Below, one piece after another: positions 21,776 to 30,410 of a stretch of DNA of 64,000 nucleotides. The DNA comes from Candidatus Hydrogenedens sp. (GTDB lineage Bacteria > Hydrogenedentota > Hydrogenedentia > Hydrogenedentales > Hydrogenedentaceae): contig JBMFRC010000008.1 of NCBI GenBank assembly GCA_049968235.1, forward strand, positions 79,157 through 143,156. The letters run 5' to 3'. Position 1 is the first letter of the stretch; every line of letters starts with the position of its first letter. The notes beneath the pieces were generated by a model that was not told where the DNA came from, ran no database searches, and saw only the letters and a list, made by a program, of their open reading frames with translations. Made by a program: the position numbers and the translations under genes.

Positions 21776-22789
21776 TTATAGAGTCCTATCCATGATACCT
21801 ACAAGCGGTTTTATTTCATTCATCAACTTTTCAAATGTTTCCAGTTTCAAAGATTGAGCACCATCCGACAACGCTTCTGCAGGATTGGGATGAACTTCTA
21901 CAATAATACCATCCGCTCCTGCGGATACTGCCGCCCTTGACATTGGAATTACTAAATCCCATCTTCCACTGGCATGACTTGGGTCAATAACAACGGGTAA
22001 ATGGGAGTATTTTTTTACCAGAGGAACAGCCTGAATATCAAGGGTATTCCGTGTTTCTGTTTCAAAGGTTCTAATTCCGCGTTCACACATAATTACATTA
22101 GGATTCCCTTCTGCAATAATATATTCAGCAGACATAAGCCACTCATTAATTGTGGACATCATCCCCCGTTTTAACAATATCGGCTTAGTTAATTTGCCTA
22201 CTGCCCGAAGAAGCCCATAATTCTGCATATTTCGAGCACCTATCTGTATAATATCCGCATAATCTGCTACTACAGGAACCTGTTCCACAGTCATGGCTTC
22301 CGTAACTACGGGCAGGTCATACTTTTCGGAAGCCTCTTTTAACAAACGTAACCCTTCCAGTTCCATACCCTGAAAACTATATGGTGATGTCCGGGGTTTA
22401 TAAGCACCCCCTCGAAGAATATGGGCTCCACATTTCTTTACAAACTCTGCAGTTTGCATAATCTGTTCACGGGACTCTACCGCACAGGGTCCTGCCATAA
22501 TACAGAAAGATTTCGGTCCTATTCGGACTTTGCCAACTTGTATAACACTATCTTCTTTTTTAACTTCGCGACTTGCTAATTTATAAGGTTTTAAGACAGG
22601 CATCACTTTTTCTACATGGGGTAATGCCTCTAATGCTAAAACCCCCTGTAGAATCCGCTCATCACCAATTACTGCTATAACTGTTTTTTCAACACCCTCA
22701 AGAACATGGGGTTTTAGCCCTAATTCTTCGACACGGGTTACAACATAAGATACATCTTCGGGTTTTCTACTTGCCATTACTATAATCAT
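21776..22789 (-). CDS. 3-deoxy-7-phosphoheptulonate (DAHP) synthase, class I-beta, with N-terminal ferredoxin-like regulatory domain
   Basis: An ~85-aa N-terminal domain, then [13 protein letters not shown]...[17 protein letters not shown]...IGARNMQN...DPSHASG, typical of the I-beta AroA/KdsA family. Confidence 0.75.
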
Positions 22790-23052
22790 GACTTGCTTCC
22801 TTCCAACTTGATTAACTAATTTAACTATATCAAATATATTTCCGGGGGTCTATATTTCTGTCCCAATTTGGGATTATATAATACCTTTTTTAAGGTTTAA
22901 TCTTCAATATCCAATTCTATAAAGCACTGTTATTTTCAACCCATTTACTCTTTTATATTTCTCTATTCCTCATAAAAAATACATCTTATAGATGACCTAA
23001 ATGTCAATATTTAAAGGATAACTTCTTTTTCGTGTGTTTATATTTTGTATTA

Positions 23053-25221
23053 TTATTCAGGACGGGTAGGTGTTTCAGCGTGAATACGGACACGGTAAAA
23101 GTGGGCAAGAGCATTAATATAGAGAGCCAGAGTTTCAATGGAGATTCCAGCAGAATTCATATCCGGGTTTGAAGAAGATAAGTCGAGATAAGGAGCATCT
23201 GAATTTTTAGAAGTAGCACGAATTCCAAAAGGGATTACACCTACTAATTTTCTTGAATCTATGCCTGTTTTAACATAAGGATGAGCATAAACAGGTAGAT
23301 TTTTCGATCCTAATCCTTCAATAAAGCAAATCCCATAAGGATTTACCCCCAATACCCAGTTTATATGGTCAAAAAATAATCTCTTTGTTGTATCTTCGGG
23401 TATAAACCGAAATGCCTTCCCTGCTAATTGGGCAATTTGGAGGATATATAAATTATTCCCTTTTACGCCTTCTTCACTTTTTGTGGTTATCCCGAAGAAA
23501 TCCACTTCGGGTTTCCATTTCATTGGGCAAATTCCGAAAGGATTCTGATTTGCTTGTTCCGAATAAAGTTGAATTGCATTTTGCAAAGATTGAACTAATT
23601 CATAAGTTTTATTCTCGTAGGTAAAGGCATCATATCTGGGAATTGCTTCAGATACATTAAGAATATTCTCCGGCACACACGACTGTATAACAGATATGTT
23701 TTTCTCTATATTTTTTATTTCTTCAAGGTAAACAAGAGCAGAGAACAAACCCCAATTTTTCTTCCCCTGTACTATCACAGATTGGGTCAATTTCTCTGCC
23801 TTGTTAATATAAGGGCTTTCAGGGTTTATCTTCGACGATAAATAAGCAACATTCCCGAGAGCAGATATAACAAACTCTTCATCAGATACAGTTTCTTCAA
23901 TGGGTCTTTCGTCTGCTGTATTTAATTGATTATCTGTTTCTTCTTCAGGTTTCCTGATACTATTTTCTGGTTTTGAAAAGATATTGCCCAGTAGTGTACC
24001 ATCCTCTTTGATACGGTGGACAATATATTCAGCACCCCAATCTATCTCTTCACGCAACTTTGAAGCCAGGTCCTTATCCTTTAACAAACGCCACATGCAA
24101 ATATTGTAACTCTCAGCAAGCAGGTTCAAACAAAGAGCAGACTTCGTTTTGCTGTATGTCTCTCCATCATGCCACCCTCCTTTAAGTGAGATACCTTCAA
24201 ATGAATCATCTGCATGACAAAGTTCATGAATACCTTCTATTTTTGTGCCACAACGATGTAATCGAATTCCCTCCAATACTCTCGGAACCGTTTTTCCCCA
24301 GAGAAGGTCTTTGCCGATTAGAAAAGAGGGGCTGTAATACCTTTTTTCTCCAATAATTACCACAATCCGATAATTGCCTTCCTCGTTATAATCCGAAAAA
24401 TCTGCACGACAGAACCATTTTCCCCAGTCCGATTTGTGAATACCAACAATTCGCGACGGCTCACCGAAATGTATTTCTCGTATTTCACGGTCAGAGTCCC
24501 CTAAAAGGTACGAAGTTAGCCCTTCAGGTTTAAAATTTGTCGCAAGAATACATGTTTTGGGATACAGTAGGTCATATCCTACTTGATTAACAAATATATC
24601 AATAGTTTTAGGTTTTTCAATAATACCTGTAAAATTGGCTTCATCCCACCATACCGTCCCTGCCGTATTAAATTCGGTAATTAATCGGAATCGTACTGCA
24701 ATTGTACCCGAAGGGACAAATGTCTCTGATAGCATAAATCGTTTCCATTCAGAACCCGCATTTTCTATTAATCGTAACTCTTTCTTTTCTATAGATTCTT
24801 TGTTATTTAGCCATTCTATAACGACCTTTGATGGGAATGTTCCTCGATAAAAAATGCTACCTGTAATAGATACCATACCTGCGGGAATAGGTATATCTTC
24901 TGTCTTAACACTTACCTCTCCGTTACCTTCAACACGAAGAGAACTTTTACCGGAAAGATAAGTTTCATTATCCAGAGAAATTTTGTTTTCAGTATTGACG
25001 GAAGAACATTTCCAGTTATTTAATAGAGATACTGTATCCGTATCCTTCTCAAAAAGTTCAAAACCTCCATTGTAAACCAGGGGAACCGTTTCCCAGATAA
25101 AATCTTCATTATCATTTATAGGTGATGCGGATTCTCCACAAAGAGCAGGAAAAGCAGAGAATAATAGAGAACCTGCAATAAACAAAAAAAGAATTGATTT
25201 TTTTTCTAAAATCATGTTCAT
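23053..25221 (-). CDS. secreted (alpha/alpha)6 glycoside hydrolase, GH9-like, with N-terminal Ig/CBM-like domains
   Basis: Signal peptide. A CelD_N-like Ig block comes first. GGWHDGE resembles the GH9 GGWYDAGD motif. The C-terminal NWVLGVNPYGICFIEGLG...YAHP is GH9-like. The family assignment is tentative. Confidence 0.45.
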   Translation of the reverse strand: MNMILEKKSILFLFIAGSLLFSAFPALCGESASPINDNEDFIWETVPLVYNGGFELFEKDTDTVSLLNNWKCSSVNTENKISLDNETYLSGKSSLRVEGNGEVSVKTEDIPIPAGMVSITGSIFYRGTFPSKVVIEWLNNKESIEKKELRLIENAGSEWKRFMLSETFVPSGTIAVRFRLITEFNTAGTVWWDEANFTGIIEKPKTIDIFVNQVGYDLLYPKTCILATNFKPEGLTSYLLGDSDREIREIHFGEPSRIVGIHKSDWGKWFCRADFSDYNEEGNYRIVVIIGEKRYYSPSFLIGKDLLWGKTVPRVLEGIRLHRCGTKIEGIHELCHADDSFEGISLKGGWHDGETYSKTKSALCLNLLAESYNICMWRLLKDKDLASKLREEIDWGAEYIVHRIKEDGTLLGNIFSKPENSIRKPEEETDNQLNTADERPIEETVSDEEFVISALGNVAYLSSKINPESPYINKAEKLTQSVIVQGKKNWGLFSALVYLEEIKNIEKNISVIQSCVPENILNVSEAIPRYDAFTYENKTYELVQSLQNAIQLYSEQANQNPFGICPMKWKPEVDFFGITTKSEEGVKGNNLYILQIAQLAGKAFRFIPEDTTKRLFFDHINWVLGVNPYGICFIEGLGSKNLPVYAHPYVKTGIDSRKLVGVIPFGIRATSKNSDAPYLDLSSSNPDMNSAGISIETLALYINALAHFYRVRIHAETPTRPE

Positions 25222-25249
25222 ATATATCTATCCTATATTACTAATTATG

Positions 25250-26020
25250 TTATGTTATCTGAAATGGAGGTTCGTTTTGTATTTCTTGAAAGAGTTCATT
25301 TGCATAATCTTCTTGTTCTTCAGTTCCGGTAATAGCAAACCATAATGCCCCTTCCGCACCACCAACTCCACCACCCCCTATTAATTCTGTATCAGCACCG
25401 GTGAGTAGTTTTATAGCATCTATTTCTGTGAAAACTTCACCCGGAACAGGGAAAAACCGAGGACCATTTCCAGAAGCATGATTTATTTTCAATGCAATTG
25501 TGTCAAGATTTCCAGAAATTCGTTTTTCAAGACCAACAGGGATAATGAGTTTTACCCGACGCCCTATTACCGCTGGTATTGTAACGCCAATAGTTCCACC
25601 TTGAGGATGTGCAACAAAAATTCCAGCCCGTCGATTATTTATATCTAGTGCATTTGCCCCTTTCAGAATAATATCAAATTTAGTTAATTGTTGAGCCACA
25701 TCAAAAAGGTTCTTCCCTCGTTCCCAATTTCCTTTGACAATTACAACATCACCGGGAAAAGTCGATTCATCGGGTAATCTTCCCATTTCTGTTAGTGAAT
25801 AAAATGGAGGTAATGTAATACCCCTGAAAAAGCGTTTTTTCGGAAAGGGTTCATCATACCCTAAATATTTCAATATTTCCTCCGCGATATATCCATTTGT
25901 TGTTCCTGCAACAATAACTATCGTATGAGCATTTATTGCTCTCTGCACTTCCGGATGGCGAACTATTCCCCTTGCTATCAGCCGTTTACATGCAGACACT
26001 GTCAACGCTACTTGCAACAT
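25250..26020 (-). CDS. conserved hypothetical protein (glycine-rich GGGGVGGAEG motif)
   Basis: Clean 256-aa ORF ending in TAA. I do not recognise a family. Confidence 0.3.
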   Translation of the reverse strand: MLQVALTVSACKRLIARGIVRHPEVQRAINAHTIVIVAGTTNGYIAEEILKYLGYDEPFPKKRFFRGITLPPFYSLTEMGRLPDESTFPGDVVIVKGNWERGKNLFDVAQQLTKFDIILKGANALDINNRRAGIFVAHPQGGTIGVTIPAVIGRRVKLIIPVGLEKRISGNLDTIALKINHASGNGPRFFPVPGEVFTEIDAIKLLTGADTELIGGGGVGGAEGALWFAITGTEEQEDYANELFQEIQNEPPFQIT

Positions 26021-26179
26021 AAAAAACTTCTCCTTTTACTAATTTTTTGAAACAGGAATAGGTAGTAGTATATTTTATCCTAATATAAGAGATTATAAAA
26101 GGTAAGCCTCTTACTCCTTAAATTTTAACATTTGTGTAGAAAAAAGAGAAACCACGTTTTCAATGCTTTACTGGTATAA

Positions 26180-27040
<861 letters not shown>

Positions 27041-27382
27041 AATTTAATTGAAAAAGGGTATATCAAAATTGGGGAGTTCTTATATTCCAAAGATGGTAAA
27101 TACATCGCATGTGTTTTAGCAGATGTATCTATTCTTTACGATAACATAGCAGGTTCCATTCATAAGATAAGTGCTAAAATATTAGGAAAAGAAAATAATA
27201 ACGGCTGGACTTATTGGCATGTAAAAAGAGAAAATAAGATAATTTGTATTGACCAATTAAGATATGAATATGAAAAGAAATATCTTACGAGTTCTTTTGA
27301 TTATGGTATTTTTGACTTTGAAAAAGAATCTTCACTAACAGTCAAGGATGAAAGTTTCTTATATGAAAATAATGGAATATAA
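27041..27382 (+). other. in-frame continuation of the methyltransferase after the TGA, 113 codons encoding a CcrM-type C-terminal DNA-binding domain
   Basis: Same frame as 26213..27040 and open to TAA 27380-27382. It encodes …GSIHKISAKILGKENNNGWTYWHVK…, matching CcrM CTD motifs (GSIHKIGA…NGWTYWHF) as I recall them. Confidence 0.6.
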
Positions 27383-28235
27383 CGAATTTAAAATGATATT
27401 AAATAAAAACATATTCGAACGCTCAAAGGCGGACTTGCTTGAAAAAATTGCGAATTCTCCTTCAAGATATATTGGACTTTTTAGACCTACCAAACCAAAA
27501 GGTAAAATTCTTCAAGATATATTACAATCATACGAAATCCGTTTTGGAAATGCATTTGAGGAAGTTTTCGAAAAATATTTAGGATACATGGGATTTGAAA
27601 TACTAAAAAAGGTATATGTTGACAAAAACAAAGGTATTAAAAATATATTGTGCGTAGACCAATGTTTCAGAAAAGAAGAGAAAGTATATTTCCTTGAACA
27701 AAAGGTTAGAGATGACCATGATTCTTCCAAAAAAAGAGGGCAAATAAAAAATTTTGAGGAAAAATTAAATATAATGCTATCAAAATTTTCAGAAAAAGAA
27801 CTCGTTGGTATTTTTTATTTCTTAGACCCTGAAATTGTTAAAAATAAACTCTATTATGAAAATGAATTAGAGACAATGAAAAGGGACTACAATGTAGAAA
27901 CACATTTATTCTATGGTGAAAAATTATTTGAATTTTTAGGCTATCCCAGTGTATGGAACGAAATTCTTAACTACCTTTCCCAATGGAAAAGAGAAATACC
28001 AGACATGCCAGAAATCAATTTTGACATAGACTATGAAAACACTTTCAATGAAATTAAAGATTTAAAACCACTCATTTTTAGGAGTCTACTTACTGACGAT
28101 ACAATATACGATGAAATTATTTGCACATTATTTCCTGATGGGAGAACTTTTAAATTATTAAGACAATATTTTATGCTTAAAAAGGGTTCTATTTACGAAA
28201 GATTAGTTAATTTGATTGACAAACGTATAAAATAA
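27348..28235 (+). CDS. hypothetical protein; candidate cognate type II restriction endonuclease
   Basis: A 295-aa ORF immediately downstream of and overlapping the methyltransferase. It is very AT-rich (roughly 28-30% GC) and Lys/Glu/Asn-rich. I do not recognise the family. Confidence 0.3.
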   Translation: MKVSYMKIMEYNEFKMILNKNIFERSKADLLEKIANSPSRYIGLFRPTKPKGKILQDILQSYEIRFGNAFEEVFEKYLGYMGFEILKKVYVDKNKGIKNILCVDQCFRKEEKVYFLEQKVRDDHDSSKKRGQIKNFEEKLNIMLSKFSEKELVGIFYFLDPEIVKNKLYYENELETMKRDYNVETHLFYGEKLFEFLGYPSVWNEILNYLSQWKREIPDMPEINFDIDYENTFNEIKDLKPLIFRSLLTDDTIYDEIICTLFPDGRTFKLLRQYFMLKKGSIYERLVNLIDKRIK

Positions 28236-28321
28236 ATCCTTTTTATATATTTTTTGTTATATAACAATATTTAATATTAATTCTAACTCGTTTAAATGTA
28301 AAACGAAGAAAGGGATGAATT

Positions 28322-29065
28322 ATGTCAGGTTTGCGTATCACGGTTTGGAATGAAGGTGTTCATGAGAAAATTAGTGAAAAGGTGCAAAAGGTATATCCGA
28401 ACTCTATTGGACAACAAATTGCTCAATATCTGGAAAAACAGTCAGGAATTGAAAGTGTTCGTGTTGTGCAATTGGATGACACGGACCAGGGATTATCTGA
28501 TGAAATTTTGGAAAATACAGATGTAATGACATGGTGGGGACATCTGGCTCATGACAAAGTAACGGAAGAAAATGCAGAAAAAGTACAGAATCGTGTCTTG
28601 AATGGAATGGGGCTGGTTGTTTTACATTCCGGACACATGTCAAAACCATTTCGTCGTCTTATGGGAACGGGATGTATGTTAAAATGGCGAGAATGGAAAG
28701 GCGAAGGAGAACGAGAACGTGTCTGGGTGGTTGACCCTGCACATCCTATTGCAAATGGCATCCCTGAATATATCGAATTAGAACGCTCCGAAATGTATGG
28801 GGAACATTTTGATATACCTCAGCCAGACCAATTGGTCTTTATCAGTTGGTACCAAGGAGGTGAAGTATTTCGTAGTGGTTGTTGTTGGCATCGTGGATTG
28901 GGAAAGGTCTTTTACTTCAGCCCCGGGCATGAAACTTTACCGATTTATTACAATGAGCATATCTTAAAAGTTATTTATAACGGCGTGTTATGGTCTGCAC
29001 CTACAAGACCTGTGAATGGGGTACTTCGTGGGAATTTTGACCCACCTATTGAAAAAATAGGATAA
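28322..29065 (+). CDS. ThuA-like (trehalose-utilisation, class I glutamine amidotransferase-like fold) protein
   Basis: LRITVWNEGVHE…VVLHSGHMSKPF…FYFSPGHETLP; the ThuA signature layout. Confidence 0.7.
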   Translation: MSGLRITVWNEGVHEKISEKVQKVYPNSIGQQIAQYLEKQSGIESVRVVQLDDTDQGLSDEILENTDVMTWWGHLAHDKVTEENAEKVQNRVLNGMGLVVLHSGHMSKPFRRLMGTGCMLKWREWKGEGERERVWVVDPAHPIANGIPEYIELERSEMYGEHFDIPQPDQLVFISWYQGGEVFRSGCCWHRGLGKVFYFSPGHETLPIYYNEHILKVIYNGVLWSAPTRPVNGVLRGNFDPPIEKIG

Positions 29066-29070
29066 ATATT

Positions 29071-30090
29071 ATGAACAAAAAAAGGCAAAATTGTTGGATA
29101 ACTATATTACTATATATAGCCACCATCTGCTTATCTTCCTTTTCCTATGCAGATTCGACCAATCCACCAGGTTCACCCCCATTGTGGAAAAAAGCAGAGA
29201 TTTTCCAGCAAGACATGGAAGAACGGTTTCTGCTGGATGGACAGGCACTCTGTAAATTAATTCTCCCACAAAAGGATAGAGGATTGAGTTATAACATGCC
29301 AGACAATGCCTATATGACAGGTATTTATGTAGGCACTTTGTCCATGAAGTATTCCATAACAAAAAATGAAGAGGATAAAACAAAGTTAATTCTATCAATT
29401 AAAGCCCTAAATTTTCTGTGTCGTGCAAGTGGTATAGAAGGTTTACTTGCTCGAGCAGTTATACCTTCAGATTCACCATGGCAAGATAACGGAATATGGA
29501 GACCTACTCCTGATGGTAAGCATAAATGGCGAGGTGATGTTAGCAGTGACCAGGTGGATGGTGTTATGTTCGGTTTTTCATGGGCATATGAAACTGTTAA
29601 CGATGAATCTGTGCGGAAAGAAATAGCCAGGGATGTAACTGCAATTGTAGAGCATATATTAAGGAACGATTTGAAAATTATAGATGCAGACGGTAAACCT
29701 ACAACATGGGGAAAGTATTTTCCACAATATACAATGATAGAGCCGTTAAATGCTTTATTATGGTTACAAGCATTAAAAGTTGCACATCAAGTTTCCAATG
29801 ATAATAAATATGCTGACCTATATAAAAAGTATGCTATAGAAATGGACTATGCAAAGCGGGCTATTCAGGCAAGAAGAAATCTCGACCCCACACGGAGAGG
29901 TTTTGTTAACCATTCTAATGATGTTCTTTTCTTTTTAGGTATTGAACCTCTTTTACGGTTGGAACAGGACCCACAGATACGAGAATATTACATCCAGTCC
30001 TTAAAACATGCTTGGGAAGGCTCACCTCCCTTCCCGGGATTAAAACCTGAAGCAAACCTGCGTATTCATTTTTATCAGCAAAGTACTTGA
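29071..30090 (+). CDS. secreted hypothetical protein
   Basis: N-terminal signal peptide. Ends in TGA as part of an ATGA overlap with the next ORF. It may be the N-terminal part of a frameshifted longer gene. Confidence 0.4.
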   Translation: MNKKRQNCWITILLYIATICLSSFSYADSTNPPGSPPLWKKAEIFQQDMEERFLLDGQALCKLILPQKDRGLSYNMPDNAYMTGIYVGTLSMKYSITKNEEDKTKLILSIKALNFLCRASGIEGLLARAVIPSDSPWQDNGIWRPTPDGKHKWRGDVSSDQVDGVMFGFSWAYETVNDESVRKEIARDVTAIVEHILRNDLKIIDADGKPTTWGKYFPQYTMIEPLNALLWLQALKVAHQVSNDNKYADLYKKYAIEMDYAKRAIQARRNLDPTRRGFVNHSNDVLFFLGIEPLLRLEQDPQIREYYIQSLKHAWEGSPPFPGLKPEANLRIHFYQQST

Positions 30091-30410
30091 ATGATACATC
30101 TGAAATAGAGAATGCTATTAAAACACTGGAGTGGTTTCCTTTTTCTATTAAATGGAACAAAGATACCCTCGCAAAATATGAGCAACAACATAATATTCGA
30201 TTAATTTGGGACACACAAAGTCCGGAGCCAGAAAAAGGGAAACCAATACCTATTGATAGACGAGAAAATACATGGTCAACATGGGTACAGGACCCATACC
30301 TCTCCCCGGGTGACCCTTTGGAAGATTTCTTTGTGGAATACAATGGACATGACTATCTATTGGGGTATTGGCTGGGTAGACACTACGACTTTATTGATAA
30401 AAATAGGTAA
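30087..30410 (+). CDS. hypothetical protein; possibly the C-terminal continuation of 29071..30090
   Basis: 107 aa. Its frame is open from 30051, 37 nt before the upstream stop. Confidence 0.3.
   Translation: MNDTSEIENAIKTLEWFPFSIKWNKDTLAKYEQQHNIRLIWDTQSPEPEKGKPIPIDRRENTWSTWVQDPYLSPGDPLEDFFVEYNGHDYLLGYWLGRHYDFIDKNR

What the first reader, a model, noticed from the sequence alone, without database searches (positions are those of the whole stretch)
27348..28235. Strongly AT-rich ORF downstream of the methyltransferase: candidate cognate restriction endonuclease in a horizontally acquired R-M island
This 295-aa ORF overlaps the end of the MTase read-through frame. It is much more AT-rich than the surrounding genes and is rich in K/E/N. 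I recognise no family, which is common for type II REases. The position and composition suggest an imported GANTC-type R-M pair. If the REase is intact while the MTase is truncated, the combination should be toxic. So one of the two is inactive, or the TGA is read through, or the methylation is supplied elsewhere.
Basis: inference. Interest (0 to 1): 0.5.

Follow-up and report, generated by a model that had tools for sequence, protein, structure and literature searches.

The report
GANTC restriction enzyme gene, broken methylase partner
The AT-rich ORF is an ordinary HpyAIV-family type II restriction endonuclease gene (HpyAIV cuts GANTC) in a two-gene restriction-modification cassette inserted into one Candidatus Hydrogenedens lineage; its partner methyltransferase carries a real premature stop codon while the nuclease gene looks fully intact.

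Summary
ORF 27348-28235 (probable true start 27363, 290 aa) passes NCBIfam's curated cut-off for the HpyAIV family of type II restriction enzymes (240.9 bits against a cut-off of 160). It keeps every family-wide conserved residue (E58, D99, E112-Q-K114) and models as a PD-(D/E)XK nuclease.

In five genomic contexts its homologues sit directly downstream of, and overlap, a 389-391 aa beta-class N6-adenine methyltransferase with a RAMA domain. Five related Hydrogenedens-type genomes have hyp256 next to thuA with nothing between. The pair is therefore a roughly 2.2 kb insertion, and it is the most AT-rich coding DNA in the window.

The methyltransferase stop (TGA, 27038-27040) replaces an invariant Gly codon (GGT or GGA elsewhere). 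It is not an assembly error. A second, non-identical assembly (GCA_049971155.1) has the same TGA plus further damage downstream of it. Its nuclease protein is identical, with five synonymous and no non-synonymous differences.

So the "toxic combination" puzzle is real and remains unresolved. The family is known and already named in public annotation, so interest is low to moderate.

The parts
26076..28255 (.). Inserted two-gene restriction-modification cassette (boundaries approximate, within about 30 nt)
   Evidence: In L006 (Ca. Hydrogenedens terephthalaticus), L007, L008, L009 and L011, hyp256 and thuA are neighbours, separated by roughly 130-200 nt. The window and L001-L004 carry the methyltransferase and nuclease genes between them. 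No terminal repeats or target duplication were found.
26041..26077 (+). Promoter-like segment shared with the empty-site genomes, now upstream of the methyltransferase gene
   Evidence: It is conserved with L006, L007 and L009 in alignment A3. It contains TTGAAA-16-TATATT, a 10/12 match at 26047-26074. A promoter role is inferred only.
26213..27040 (+). Methyltransferase ORF truncated to its catalytic domain (275 aa); beta-class N6-adenine methyltransferase of the CcrM/HinfI/HpyAIV type
   Evidence: PF01555 at 4e-68. NCBIfam CcrM model positions 2-272 of 350 at 458 bits, below the cut-off of 830. PADLOC MTase_II at 2.2e-140. The DPPY and FSGSG motifs are visible in the translation.
27038..27040 (+). 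Premature TGA replacing an invariant Gly codon in the linker (...KPKVSF*NLIEKG...)
   Evidence: It aligns to GGT in L001/L002 and GGA in L029. Glycine is present in L001, L030, L032 and L034. The same TGA is present in the independent assembly L036. TGA is an ordinary stop codon in this window.
27041..27385 (+). Remnant of the methyltransferase C-terminal RAMA domain and tail, in frame behind the TGA; no canonical start codon of its own
   Evidence: PF18755 RAMA at 1.2e-11. CcrM model positions 275-349 at 3.4e-20. No in-frame ATG/GTG/TTG ORF of at least 20 aa. dN/dS against L001 is 0.107. The sister strain L036 has a D-to-Y change at 27092 and a 28-nt deletion at 27323-27350.
27348..27362 (+).
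   Evidence: No homologue has these residues. The ATG at 27348 is removed by the deletion in L036, yet the 290-aa product is retained.
27363..28235 (+). HpyAIV-family type II restriction endonuclease gene (290 aa), intact
   Evidence: NF045832 at 240.9 bits, above the cut-off of 160. There are 1185 homologues, the nearest 88% identical in Ca. Hydrogenedens. All 81 invariant columns of 35 sequences and all 44 columns at least 80% conserved across 92 diverse representatives are kept. The AlphaFold2 model has pLDDT 88. dN/dS against L001 is 0.19.
27534..27536 (+). Codon for E58, a conserved acidic residue in the first long helix (SxEIRFG)
   Evidence: 87% conserved family-wide and invariant in A2. 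A catalytic role is inferred.
27657..27659 (+). Codon for D99, the putative catalytic Asp of the PD-(D/E)XK motif
   Evidence: 96% conserved. It lies at the start of a beta-strand of the model core. A catalytic role is inferred.
27696..27704 (+). Codons for E112-Q113-K114, the putative (D/E)XK of the PD-(D/E)XK motif
   Evidence: E is 96% and K 98% conserved. They sit at the end of strand 107-114 of the model. Fold matches are to PD-(D/E)XK nucleases.

Best explanation
**Identity.** The ORF (most likely 27363-28235, 290 aa) encodes a type IIP restriction endonuclease of the HpyAIV family. It has a PD-(D/E)XK fold with putative catalytic residues E58, D99 and E112-x-K114. By family membership and partner type it should cut unmethylated GANTC, as HinfI and HpyAIV do.

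**Cassette.** It is the second gene of a roughly 2.2 kb methyltransferase-then-nuclease cassette. The methyltransferase is a beta-class m6A enzyme with a C-terminal RAMA DNA-binding domain. The nuclease start overlaps the methyltransferase end, which suggests translational coupling. The cassette was inserted between hyp256 and thuA in one sub-lineage of Candidatus Hydrogenedens.

**State in this strain.** A single G-to-T change (GGA to TGA) truncates the methyltransferase after its catalytic domain. That lesion is real and predates the split of at least two sampled strains. The nuclease reading frame has stayed intact and shows only synonymous change since then.

**How the two coexist (inferred, about 0.35).** The most likely reconciliation is residual protection combined with lowered nuclease output. 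The 275-aa catalytic fragment, and/or rare UGA read-through product, would still methylate GANTC. The premature stop would also uncouple and reduce translation of the nuclease, which has no well-placed Shine-Dalgarno sequence.

Identity of the gene and of the cassette: confidence about 0.93.
For: **Family**
- NF045832 HpyAIV family at E = 1.6e-71, 240.9 bits against a cut-off of 160, near full length.
- PADLOC REase_II at 4.5e-78.
- A 100%-identical partial protein is already named 'HpyAIV family type II restriction enzyme' by NCBI.

**Fold**
- The AlphaFold2 model has pLDDT 88.

**Intactness**
- All conserved columns are kept.
- dN/dS is 0.19 against the L001 orthologue.
- There are five synonymous and no non-synonymous differences against strain L036. 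This has a chance of about 2e-4 if the changes were independent and neutral.

**Linkage**
- In L001-L004, L030/31, L032/33 and L034/35 the homologue follows and overlaps by 11-20 nt a 389-391 aa N6_N4_Mtase+RAMA gene, in four different sets of flanking genes.

**Insertion**
- Five relatives have empty sites.
- The two genes have the lowest GC in the window.

**The TGA is real**
- It aligns to Gly codons elsewhere.
- The identical TGA is in L036, which differs from the window by 12 substitutions and 2 indels over 10.1 kb.
- TGA is a normal stop here.

**Literature**
- hp1351 HpyAIV is an active restriction enzyme (PMC4917963). M.HpyAIV hp1352 methylates GANTC (PMC3936762).
- M.HhaII methylates GANTC without the C-terminal domain (PMC10359602).

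**Start region**
- AAGG abuts the ATG at 27348 and lies 14 nt from the ATG at 27363.
Against: - **Specificity:** No cleavage or methylation data exist for this protein. GANTC is inferred, and related methyltransferases can prefer GAWTC (PMC8919816).
- **The reconciliation step:** CcrM lacking its C-terminal 65 residues is inactive in vitro (bioRxiv 10.1101/293738). A RAMA-less fragment of this enzyme class may therefore not protect.
- **Read-through:** In L036 the region behind the TGA has taken a non-synonymous change and a 28-nt deletion. This argues against selection for a read-through product.
- **The synonymous changes:** The five changes cluster within 26 nt (27410-27435) and may not be independent.
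- **Possible attenuation:** The nuclease carries three lineage-specific substitutions next to E58 (N52D, L53I, H57Y). These are absent from 119 close homologues and could attenuate it.
- **GANTC depletion:** It is only mild (O/E 0.74) and not clearly different from relatives without the cassette (0.87, range 0.53-1.16).
Confidence: 0.85

Rival explanations
1. This is a decaying restriction-modification system. The nuclease was first attenuated or killed by missense changes, which made loss of the methyltransferase harmless. The nuclease ORF only looks intact because too little time has passed.
For: - The window and L036 lineage has N52D, L53I and H57Y clustered beside conserved E58. N is present in 119 of 119 close homologues and H in 115 of 119.
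- In the comparison with L001, 18 changes are window-derived and 12 are L001-derived.
- The methyltransferase remnant is decaying further in L036.
- From established knowledge: in decaying restriction-modification systems the nuclease usually loses function before the methyltransferase.
Against: - Positions 52, 53 and 57 vary across the whole family, and Y57 occurs in 5 of 92 representatives.
- All residues at least 80% conserved family-wide are retained.
- The 18 against 12 split is not significant.
- Since the TGA arose, the nuclease shows five synonymous and no non-synonymous differences and no indel, while the methyltransferase remnant took a non-synonymous change and a deletion.
Confidence: 0.3
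2. The nuclease is active, and protection comes from a second GANTC (CcrM-like or HhaII-like) methyltransferase elsewhere in the genome. That would make the cassette's own methyltransferase dispensable.
For: - It would explain an intact, selected nuclease alongside a truncated partner.
- Orphan and short GANTC methyltransferases are common (one search lists several PADLOC families; PMC10359602).
Against: - There is no methyltransferase paralogue in the 64 kb window (tblastn).
- The rest of the genome was not available, so there is no positive evidence.
Confidence: 0.15
3. The TGA is a sequencing or assembly artefact, and the methyltransferase is really intact.
For: - It is a single-base difference from GGA.
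- The downstream RAMA region shows no excess of lineage-specific change against L001 (6 against 5) and has dN/dS 0.107.
- The window also has a 1-nt deletion splitting the gene at 29071-30410. L036 lacks that deletion, so this assembly may contain some errors or private lesions.
Against: - The same TGA is present in L036 (GCA_049971155.1), a different assembly of a non-identical strain.
- No protein is on record for the methyltransferase region there, as would be expected if it was annotated as a pseudogene.
Confidence: 0.03
4. The ORF is not a restriction enzyme but another PD-(D/E)XK protein (a repair or Holliday-junction-resolvase-like nuclease), as some JGI labels suggest.
For: - JGI automatic names include 'Holliday junction resolvase-like predicted endonuclease'.
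- The local Pfam-A scan gives no significant hit.
Against: - The curated NCBIfam equivalog cut-off is passed by 80 bits.
- The gene is invariably linked to and overlaps a GANTC-type methyltransferase.
- Its distribution is patchy and cassette-like across phyla.
Confidence: 0.02

Closest known systems
HpyAIV / M.HpyAIV of Helicobacter pylori 26695 (hp1351 / hp1352), type IIP, GANTC
   Same: The ORF belongs to the same NCBIfam equivalog family (NF045832, above cut-off). The partner is the same kind of enzyme, a beta-class m6A methyltransferase (PMC3936762). Both are two-gene cassettes.
   Different: The host phylum is different (Hydrogenedentes, from anaerobic digester or bioreactor metagenomes). 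No direct pairwise comparison with hp1351 was made. Here the methyltransferase is truncated by a nonsense codon. Specificity was not tested.
HinfI restriction-modification system (Haemophilus influenzae), G^ANTC
   Same: The presumed recognition sequence is the same. M.HinfI also carries the 83-residue C-terminal (RAMA) domain (PMC10359602). There is weak local similarity of the nuclease to the HinfI family around the catalytic core (residues 103-179, E = 5.6e-6).
   Different: The ORF scores 25.9 bits against a cut-off of 175 for NF045831, so it is not a member of the HinfI family, only a distant relative.
CcrM (Caulobacter), orphan cell-cycle GANTC methyltransferase
   Same: The neighbouring methyltransferase matches the CcrM model end to end: positions 2-272 and, behind the TGA, 275-349. 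It has the same catalytic-domain-plus-RAMA architecture.
   Different: It scores below the CcrM equivalog cut-off (458 + 72 bits against 830). It is paired with a nuclease, so it is not an orphan. It is interrupted by TGA. CcrM lacking its C-terminal 65 residues is inactive in vitro (bioRxiv 10.1101/293738).
M.HhaII-type short GANTC methyltransferases
   Same: The truncated 275-aa product matches a 260-position PADLOC MTase_II profile almost end to end (positions 8-254, E = 3.6e-82). That profile is too short to contain a RAMA domain. M.HhaII methylates GANTC without that domain (PMC10359602).
   Different: The fragment here derives from a RAMA-dependent lineage by a recent nonsense mutation. 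Whether it retains activity is unknown.
N.BspD6I / R.BspD6I, PleI and MlyI group (GAGTC) and other PD-(D/E)XK type II enzymes (PspGI, EcoO109I, FokI cleavage domain)
   Different: Sequence identity is only 9-16%, so the relationship is at fold level only. No solved structure exists for this family.

Membership tests
HpyAIV family type II restriction enzyme (NCBIfam NF045832) | Whole-protein score above the curated equivalog cut-off, with near full-length coverage of the model | tested here: met
   240.9 bits against a cut-off of 160, E = 1.6e-71. Protein residues 9-267 align to model positions 1-265 of 269.
HpyAIV family type II restriction enzyme (NCBIfam NF045832) | Retention of the family's conserved core residues (E58, E66, D99, E112-Q-K114, R116-DDHDS, K123, G126-Q, N130-F, and others) | tested here: met
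   All 81 invariant columns of A2 are kept. All 44 columns at least 80% conserved in 92 diverse 50%-cluster representatives are kept.
HpyAIV family type II restriction enzyme (NCBIfam NF045832) | Genetic linkage to a GANTC-type beta-class N6-adenine methyltransferase | tested here: met
   The window has an N6_N4_Mtase plus RAMA gene immediately upstream and overlapping. The same arrangement occurs in four other contexts.
HpyAIV family type II restriction enzyme (NCBIfam NF045832) | Sequence-specific cleavage of unmethylated GANTC | not testable with these tools
   This needs an in vitro digest or an in vivo toxicity and rescue assay. The window contains 132 GANTC sites, O/E 0.74, which is not decisive.
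PD-(D/E)XK nuclease superfamily | Alpha/beta restriction-endonuclease-like core fold | tested here: met
PD-(D/E)XK nuclease superfamily | D ... (D/E)-x-K catalytic motif on the core strands | tested here: inconclusive
   D99 and E112-Q-K114 are 96-98% conserved and lie on adjacent predicted strands. No residue-level superposition on a solved active site was made, and no mutagenesis was done.
HinfI family type II restriction enzyme (NCBIfam NF045831) | Score above the curated cut-off | tested here: not met
   25.9 bits against a cut-off of 175, a local match only (residues 103-179).
Pfam PF09520 (tagged 'HinfI' in the precomputed tables) | Significant hit to the Pfam model | tested here: inconclusive
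   The precomputed tables list PF09520 for all homologues. The local hmmscan of Pfam-A finds no such hit for the window protein, P0001 or P0010, even at E <= 10.
CcrM (NCBIfam NF050803), for the neighbouring methyltransferase | Score above the equivalog cut-off; uninterrupted catalytic domain plus C-terminal domain; no cognate nuclease | tested here: not met
   458.4 bits (catalytic part) and 72.3 bits (part behind the TGA) against a cut-off of 830. The gene is interrupted by TGA. It is paired with a nuclease gene.
Type II restriction-modification system (functional pair) | Both an active nuclease and a protecting methyltransferase of the same specificity | tested here: inconclusive
   The nuclease gene is intact. 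The methyltransferase is truncated after its catalytic domain by a real nonsense codon. The activity of either product is unknown.

The most novel reading that the evidence does not exclude
A free-living lineage stably keeps an intact, selectively maintained GANTC nuclease together with a CcrM/HinfI-type methyltransferase that has lost its RAMA domain to a nonsense codon. If the 275-aa catalytic fragment alone protects the chromosome in vivo, or if leaky UGA read-through combined with loss of translational coupling resets the methylase-to-nuclease ratio, that would be new. It would show that the 'essential' C-terminal DNA-binding domain of this enzyme class is dispensable for protection. It would also be a natural intermediate between long (HinfI/CcrM-type) and short (HhaII-type) GANTC methyltransferases.
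Probability: 0.15. Interest if true: 0.5.

Novelty: new member of a known kind. Interest (0 to 1): 0.25.

Why it matters
As a gene, this is routine. It is a member of a curated restriction-enzyme family, in a small mobile cassette, and NCBI has already auto-named an identical partial copy.

It has three modest uses:
1. **Specificity prediction.** It gives a concrete prediction (GANTC) for a restriction barrier in Hydrogenedentes, a phylum with no genetic tools.
2. **A dated insertion.** The empty and occupied sites among close relatives give a clean example of restriction-modification cassette gain, loss or exchange at one locus.
3. **A natural experiment.** A nuclease-intact, methyltransferase-truncated state is shared by two strains. 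This bears on whether the RAMA/C-terminal domain of CcrM/HinfI-type methyltransferases is needed for protection in vivo, and on how cells survive methyltransferase loss.

Tried and rejected
- **Pfam-A scan of the ORF and two homologues:** nothing significant, although precomputed tables tag PF09520. The discrepancy is left unexplained.
- **Sequence search of the PDB:** no hit.
- **tblastn against plasmid and phage collections:** no match, so there is no evidence for a plasmid or phage vehicle.
- **Rfam scan of 25800-28500:** only chance-level hits and no recoding element. There are no tRNA genes in the window.
- **Genome-wide TGA reassignment:** rejected. Seven of 42 long ORFs end in TGA, and ORFs of at least 200 aa cover 86% of the window under the standard bacterial genetic code (table 11).
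- **Separate translation of the RAMA piece:** rejected for canonical starts.
- **Terminal inverted or direct repeats, or target-site duplication, around the cassette:** only AT-rich chance matches.
- **Metagenome scan for the same strain with a pattern spanning the TGA:** it found only a 78%-identical homologue, with GGA at that codon.
- **Exact-product look-ups:** the 295-aa ORF and the 275-aa methyltransferase are not on record. The 290-aa version did find L036.
- **GANTC depletion as a test of nuclease activity:** inconclusive.
- **GAGTC site over the methyltransferase ribosome-binding site (26202) as a possible autoregulatory site:** dropped, because it is not conserved in L001.
- **Relative-rate tests for relaxed selection:** no significant excess in the nuclease (18 against 12) or in the RAMA region (6 against 5).

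Full report
**Observation.** A 295-aa ORF runs 27348..28235 on the + strand. It is the most AT-rich ORF of at least 200 aa in the 64 kb window. Its GC is 0.277, against a mean of 0.385 (sd 0.021) for 40 other ORFs (z = -5.1). The upstream methyltransferase gene is second lowest at 0.324. The deficit lies mainly in codon positions 1 and 2 (GC2 0.216), and K/E/N/I/Y/F make up 52% of residues. GC3 (0.241) is close to that of the neighbours (0.23-0.32). The methyltransferase frame read through its TGA (27038-27040) ends at TAA 27383-27385 and so overlaps the ORF start. One correction applies. No homologue has the first five residues, and a sister strain has deleted the first ATG yet keeps the 290-aa product. 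The true start is therefore most likely 27363.

**What the ORF is.** Pfam-A and a sequence search of the PDB give nothing. NCBIfam places the protein in NF045832, the HpyAIV family of type II restriction enzymes, at E = 1.6e-71 and 240.9 bits. That is above the curated cut-off of 160 and covers model positions 1-265 of 269. The HinfI family is only a weak local match (25.9 bits against a cut-off of 175). PADLOC's REase_II model matches at 4.5e-78. The large protein database holds 1185 homologues. The nearest are an 88%-identical protein from another Candidatus Hydrogenedens MAG and a 100%-identical partial protein that NCBI already names 'HpyAIV family type II restriction enzyme'.

**Is the nuclease gene intact?**
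- It keeps all 81 invariant columns of a 35-sequence alignment.
- It keeps all 44 columns that are at least 80% conserved among 92 full-length representatives of 50%-identity clusters. These include E58, E66, D99, E112-Q-K114 and the RDDHDS block.
- dN/dS against the 88% orthologue is 0.19.
- Three lineage-specific substitutions sit next to E58 (N52D, L53I, H57Y). They are absent from 119 close homologues, but those positions vary family-wide and Y57 occurs elsewhere.

I treat those three substitutions as candidates for attenuation, not as evidence of inactivation.

**The neighbour and the cassette.** ORF 26213-27040 is a beta-class N6-adenine methyltransferase (PF01555 at 4e-68; CcrM model positions 2-272). 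Behind its TGA, in frame, lies a RAMA domain (PF18755 at 1.2e-11; CcrM model positions 275-349). Nuclease homologues were examined in four other sets of flanking genes: L001-L004, L030/31, L032/33 and L034/35. In each, the nuclease gene follows and overlaps by 11-20 nt an uninterrupted 389-391 aa N6_N4_Mtase+RAMA gene. The two genes are therefore a conserved unit with overlapping stop and start, an arrangement typical of translational coupling (the coupling itself is inferred).

**Horizontal acquisition.** The window and L001-L004 share the order DAHP synthase, GH9, hyp256, methyltransferase, nuclease, thuA. In Ca. H. terephthalaticus (L006) and four other relatives (L007-L009, L011), hyp256 and thuA are neighbours separated by roughly 130-200 nt. 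Alignment of the junctions puts the insertion at about 26076-28255, just downstream of a conserved promoter-like segment. No terminal repeats, target duplication or mobility gene were found.

Cassette presence does not follow flank similarity. L006 is closer in hyp256 (92% identity) than L001 (89%), yet L006 lacks the cassette. Synonymous divergence between the window and L001 is also lower in the two cassette genes (0.29-0.42) than in the flanks (0.69-1.15). This is compatible with later exchange of the cassette between lineages, which is an inference.

**The premature stop.**
- The TGA aligns to GGT in L001/L002 and GGA in L029. Glycine is present in L001, L030, L032 and L034. The change is therefore a single G-to-T step from GGA.
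- TGA is a normal stop codon in this window.
- No recoding RNA element or tRNA gene is present.
- The RAMA piece has no canonical start of its own.
- An exact-product look-up of the 290-aa nuclease found contig JBMFLO010000054.1 of GCA_049971155.1 (L036). It matches the window at 99.6% over 10.1 kb, with 12 substitutions and 2 indels, and it has the same TGA.

The stop is therefore real and older than the split of these two strains.

**Changes since that split.**

| Region | Differences between the window and L036 |
|---|---|
| Methyltransferase catalytic part | none |
| Region behind the TGA | one non-synonymous change (D to Y, 27092) and a 28-nt slippage-type deletion (27323-27350), both in L036 |
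| Nuclease gene | five changes, all synonymous (27410-27435) |

If independent and neutral, five out of five synonymous has a probability of about 2e-4. However, the five changes are clustered and may not be independent.

**The paradox.** The window alone has 132 GANTC sites, so an active unprotected enzyme would be lethal. Each candidate resolution has evidence on both sides.

(a) Residual methylation by the 275-aa fragment. Short GANTC methyltransferases exist: there is a 260-position PADLOC profile, too short to contain a RAMA domain, and M.HhaII works without that domain (PMC10359602). Against this, CcrM lacking its C-terminal 65 residues is inactive in vitro (bioRxiv 10.1101/293738).

(b) UGA read-through. 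The decay behind the TGA in L036 argues weakly against a selected read-through product.

(c) Reduced nuclease output. The premature stop lies 320 nt upstream of a nuclease start that lacks a well-spaced Shine-Dalgarno sequence. This is inferred.

(d) A silently attenuated nuclease (N52D/L53I/H57Y).

(e) A second methyltransferase elsewhere. None is present in the window, and the rest of the genome was not seen.

I rank (a) to (c) together at about 0.35, (d) at about 0.3 and (e) at about 0.15. An assembly artefact is now about 0.03. GANTC is only mildly under-represented (O/E 0.74). Relatives without the cassette give 0.87, with a range of 0.53-1.16 across small samples. This does not discriminate between the options.

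**Comparison with known systems and verdict.** The ORF is a member of the HpyAIV family. Score, coverage, conserved residues and partner linkage were all tested and met. Cleavage specificity could not be tested. It works like HinfI or HpyAIV. It is not a member of the HinfI family by NCBIfam's cut-off. The partner methyltransferase is of the CcrM/HinfI type but is not a CcrM orthologue. The gene is a new member of a known kind, already auto-annotated in public data. The one point above routine is that the state 'methyltransferase truncated, nuclease intact and apparently still constrained' is shared by two strains.

Noticed in passing
window 29071-30410 (lesion near 30060): The gene two positions downstream of the nuclease gene is split by a 1-nt deletion into a 339-aa ORF and a 107-aa fragment. 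Its orthologues are uninterrupted: 446 aa in L001 and in the near-identical strain L036, and L006/L007 also show no deletion at this site. It is the only other split gene seen in the 64 kb and lies 3 kb from the methyltransferase TGA. It is private to this assembly, so it is either a real strain variant or an error.
   Followed up: partly
L036 4198 (corresponds to window 27323-27350) and L036 3968 (window 27092): The sister strain has a 28-nt deletion between short GAAA(A)G repeats just upstream of the nuclease start. It removes the AAGGA and the 27348 ATG. The strain also has a D-to-Y change in the RAMA remnant. This is further decay of the methyltransferase 3' part, and it may alter nuclease translation initiation.
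   Followed up: partly
window 27410-27435: Five substitutions between the window and L036 fall within 26 nt of the nuclease gene, and all are synonymous. By comparison with L001, three are window-derived and two are L036-derived. There are no differences over the preceding 4 kb (23125-27091). This could be a small recombination patch or a hotspot.
   Followed up: partly
window 21776-29065 against L001: Synonymous divergence is lower in the two cassette genes (0.29-0.42) than in the flanking DAHP synthase, hyp256 and thuA genes (0.69-1.15). The closer relative L006 lacks the cassette. This suggests lateral exchange or loss of the cassette within the genus.
   Followed up: partly
whole window: GCNGC (O/E 0.41) and GTNAC (O/E 0.62) are more strongly avoided than GANTC (0.74). 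This hints at other restriction pressures in this genome.
   Followed up: no
window 25250-26020 (- strand): This 256-aa protein has no Pfam family. It has 51-58% identical homologues in methanogenic archaea, Syntrophaceticus, Smithella and Bathyarchaeota MAGs, so it is a widely shared gene of unknown function in anaerobic-digester organisms.
   Followed up: no
homologue tables against local Pfam scans: The precomputed annotation tags every homologue with PF09520 ('HinfI'). However, hmmscan against the session's Pfam-A copy returns no such hit for the window protein, P0001 or P0010, even at E <= 10. This may be a version or threshold discrepancy in the resources.
   Followed up: partly
L005 (GCA_049969095.1 contig JBMFPN010000585.1) = window 27623-29284: A third assembly of the same strain type is 100% identical but breaks inside the nuclease gene. 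The restriction-modification locus may be hard to assemble there, for example because of population heterogeneity.
   Followed up: no
window 26202-26206: A GAGTC site overlaps the GGAG ribosome-binding site of the methyltransferase gene. It is not conserved in L001 (GAGTT), so it is probably not a regulatory feature.
   Followed up: yes
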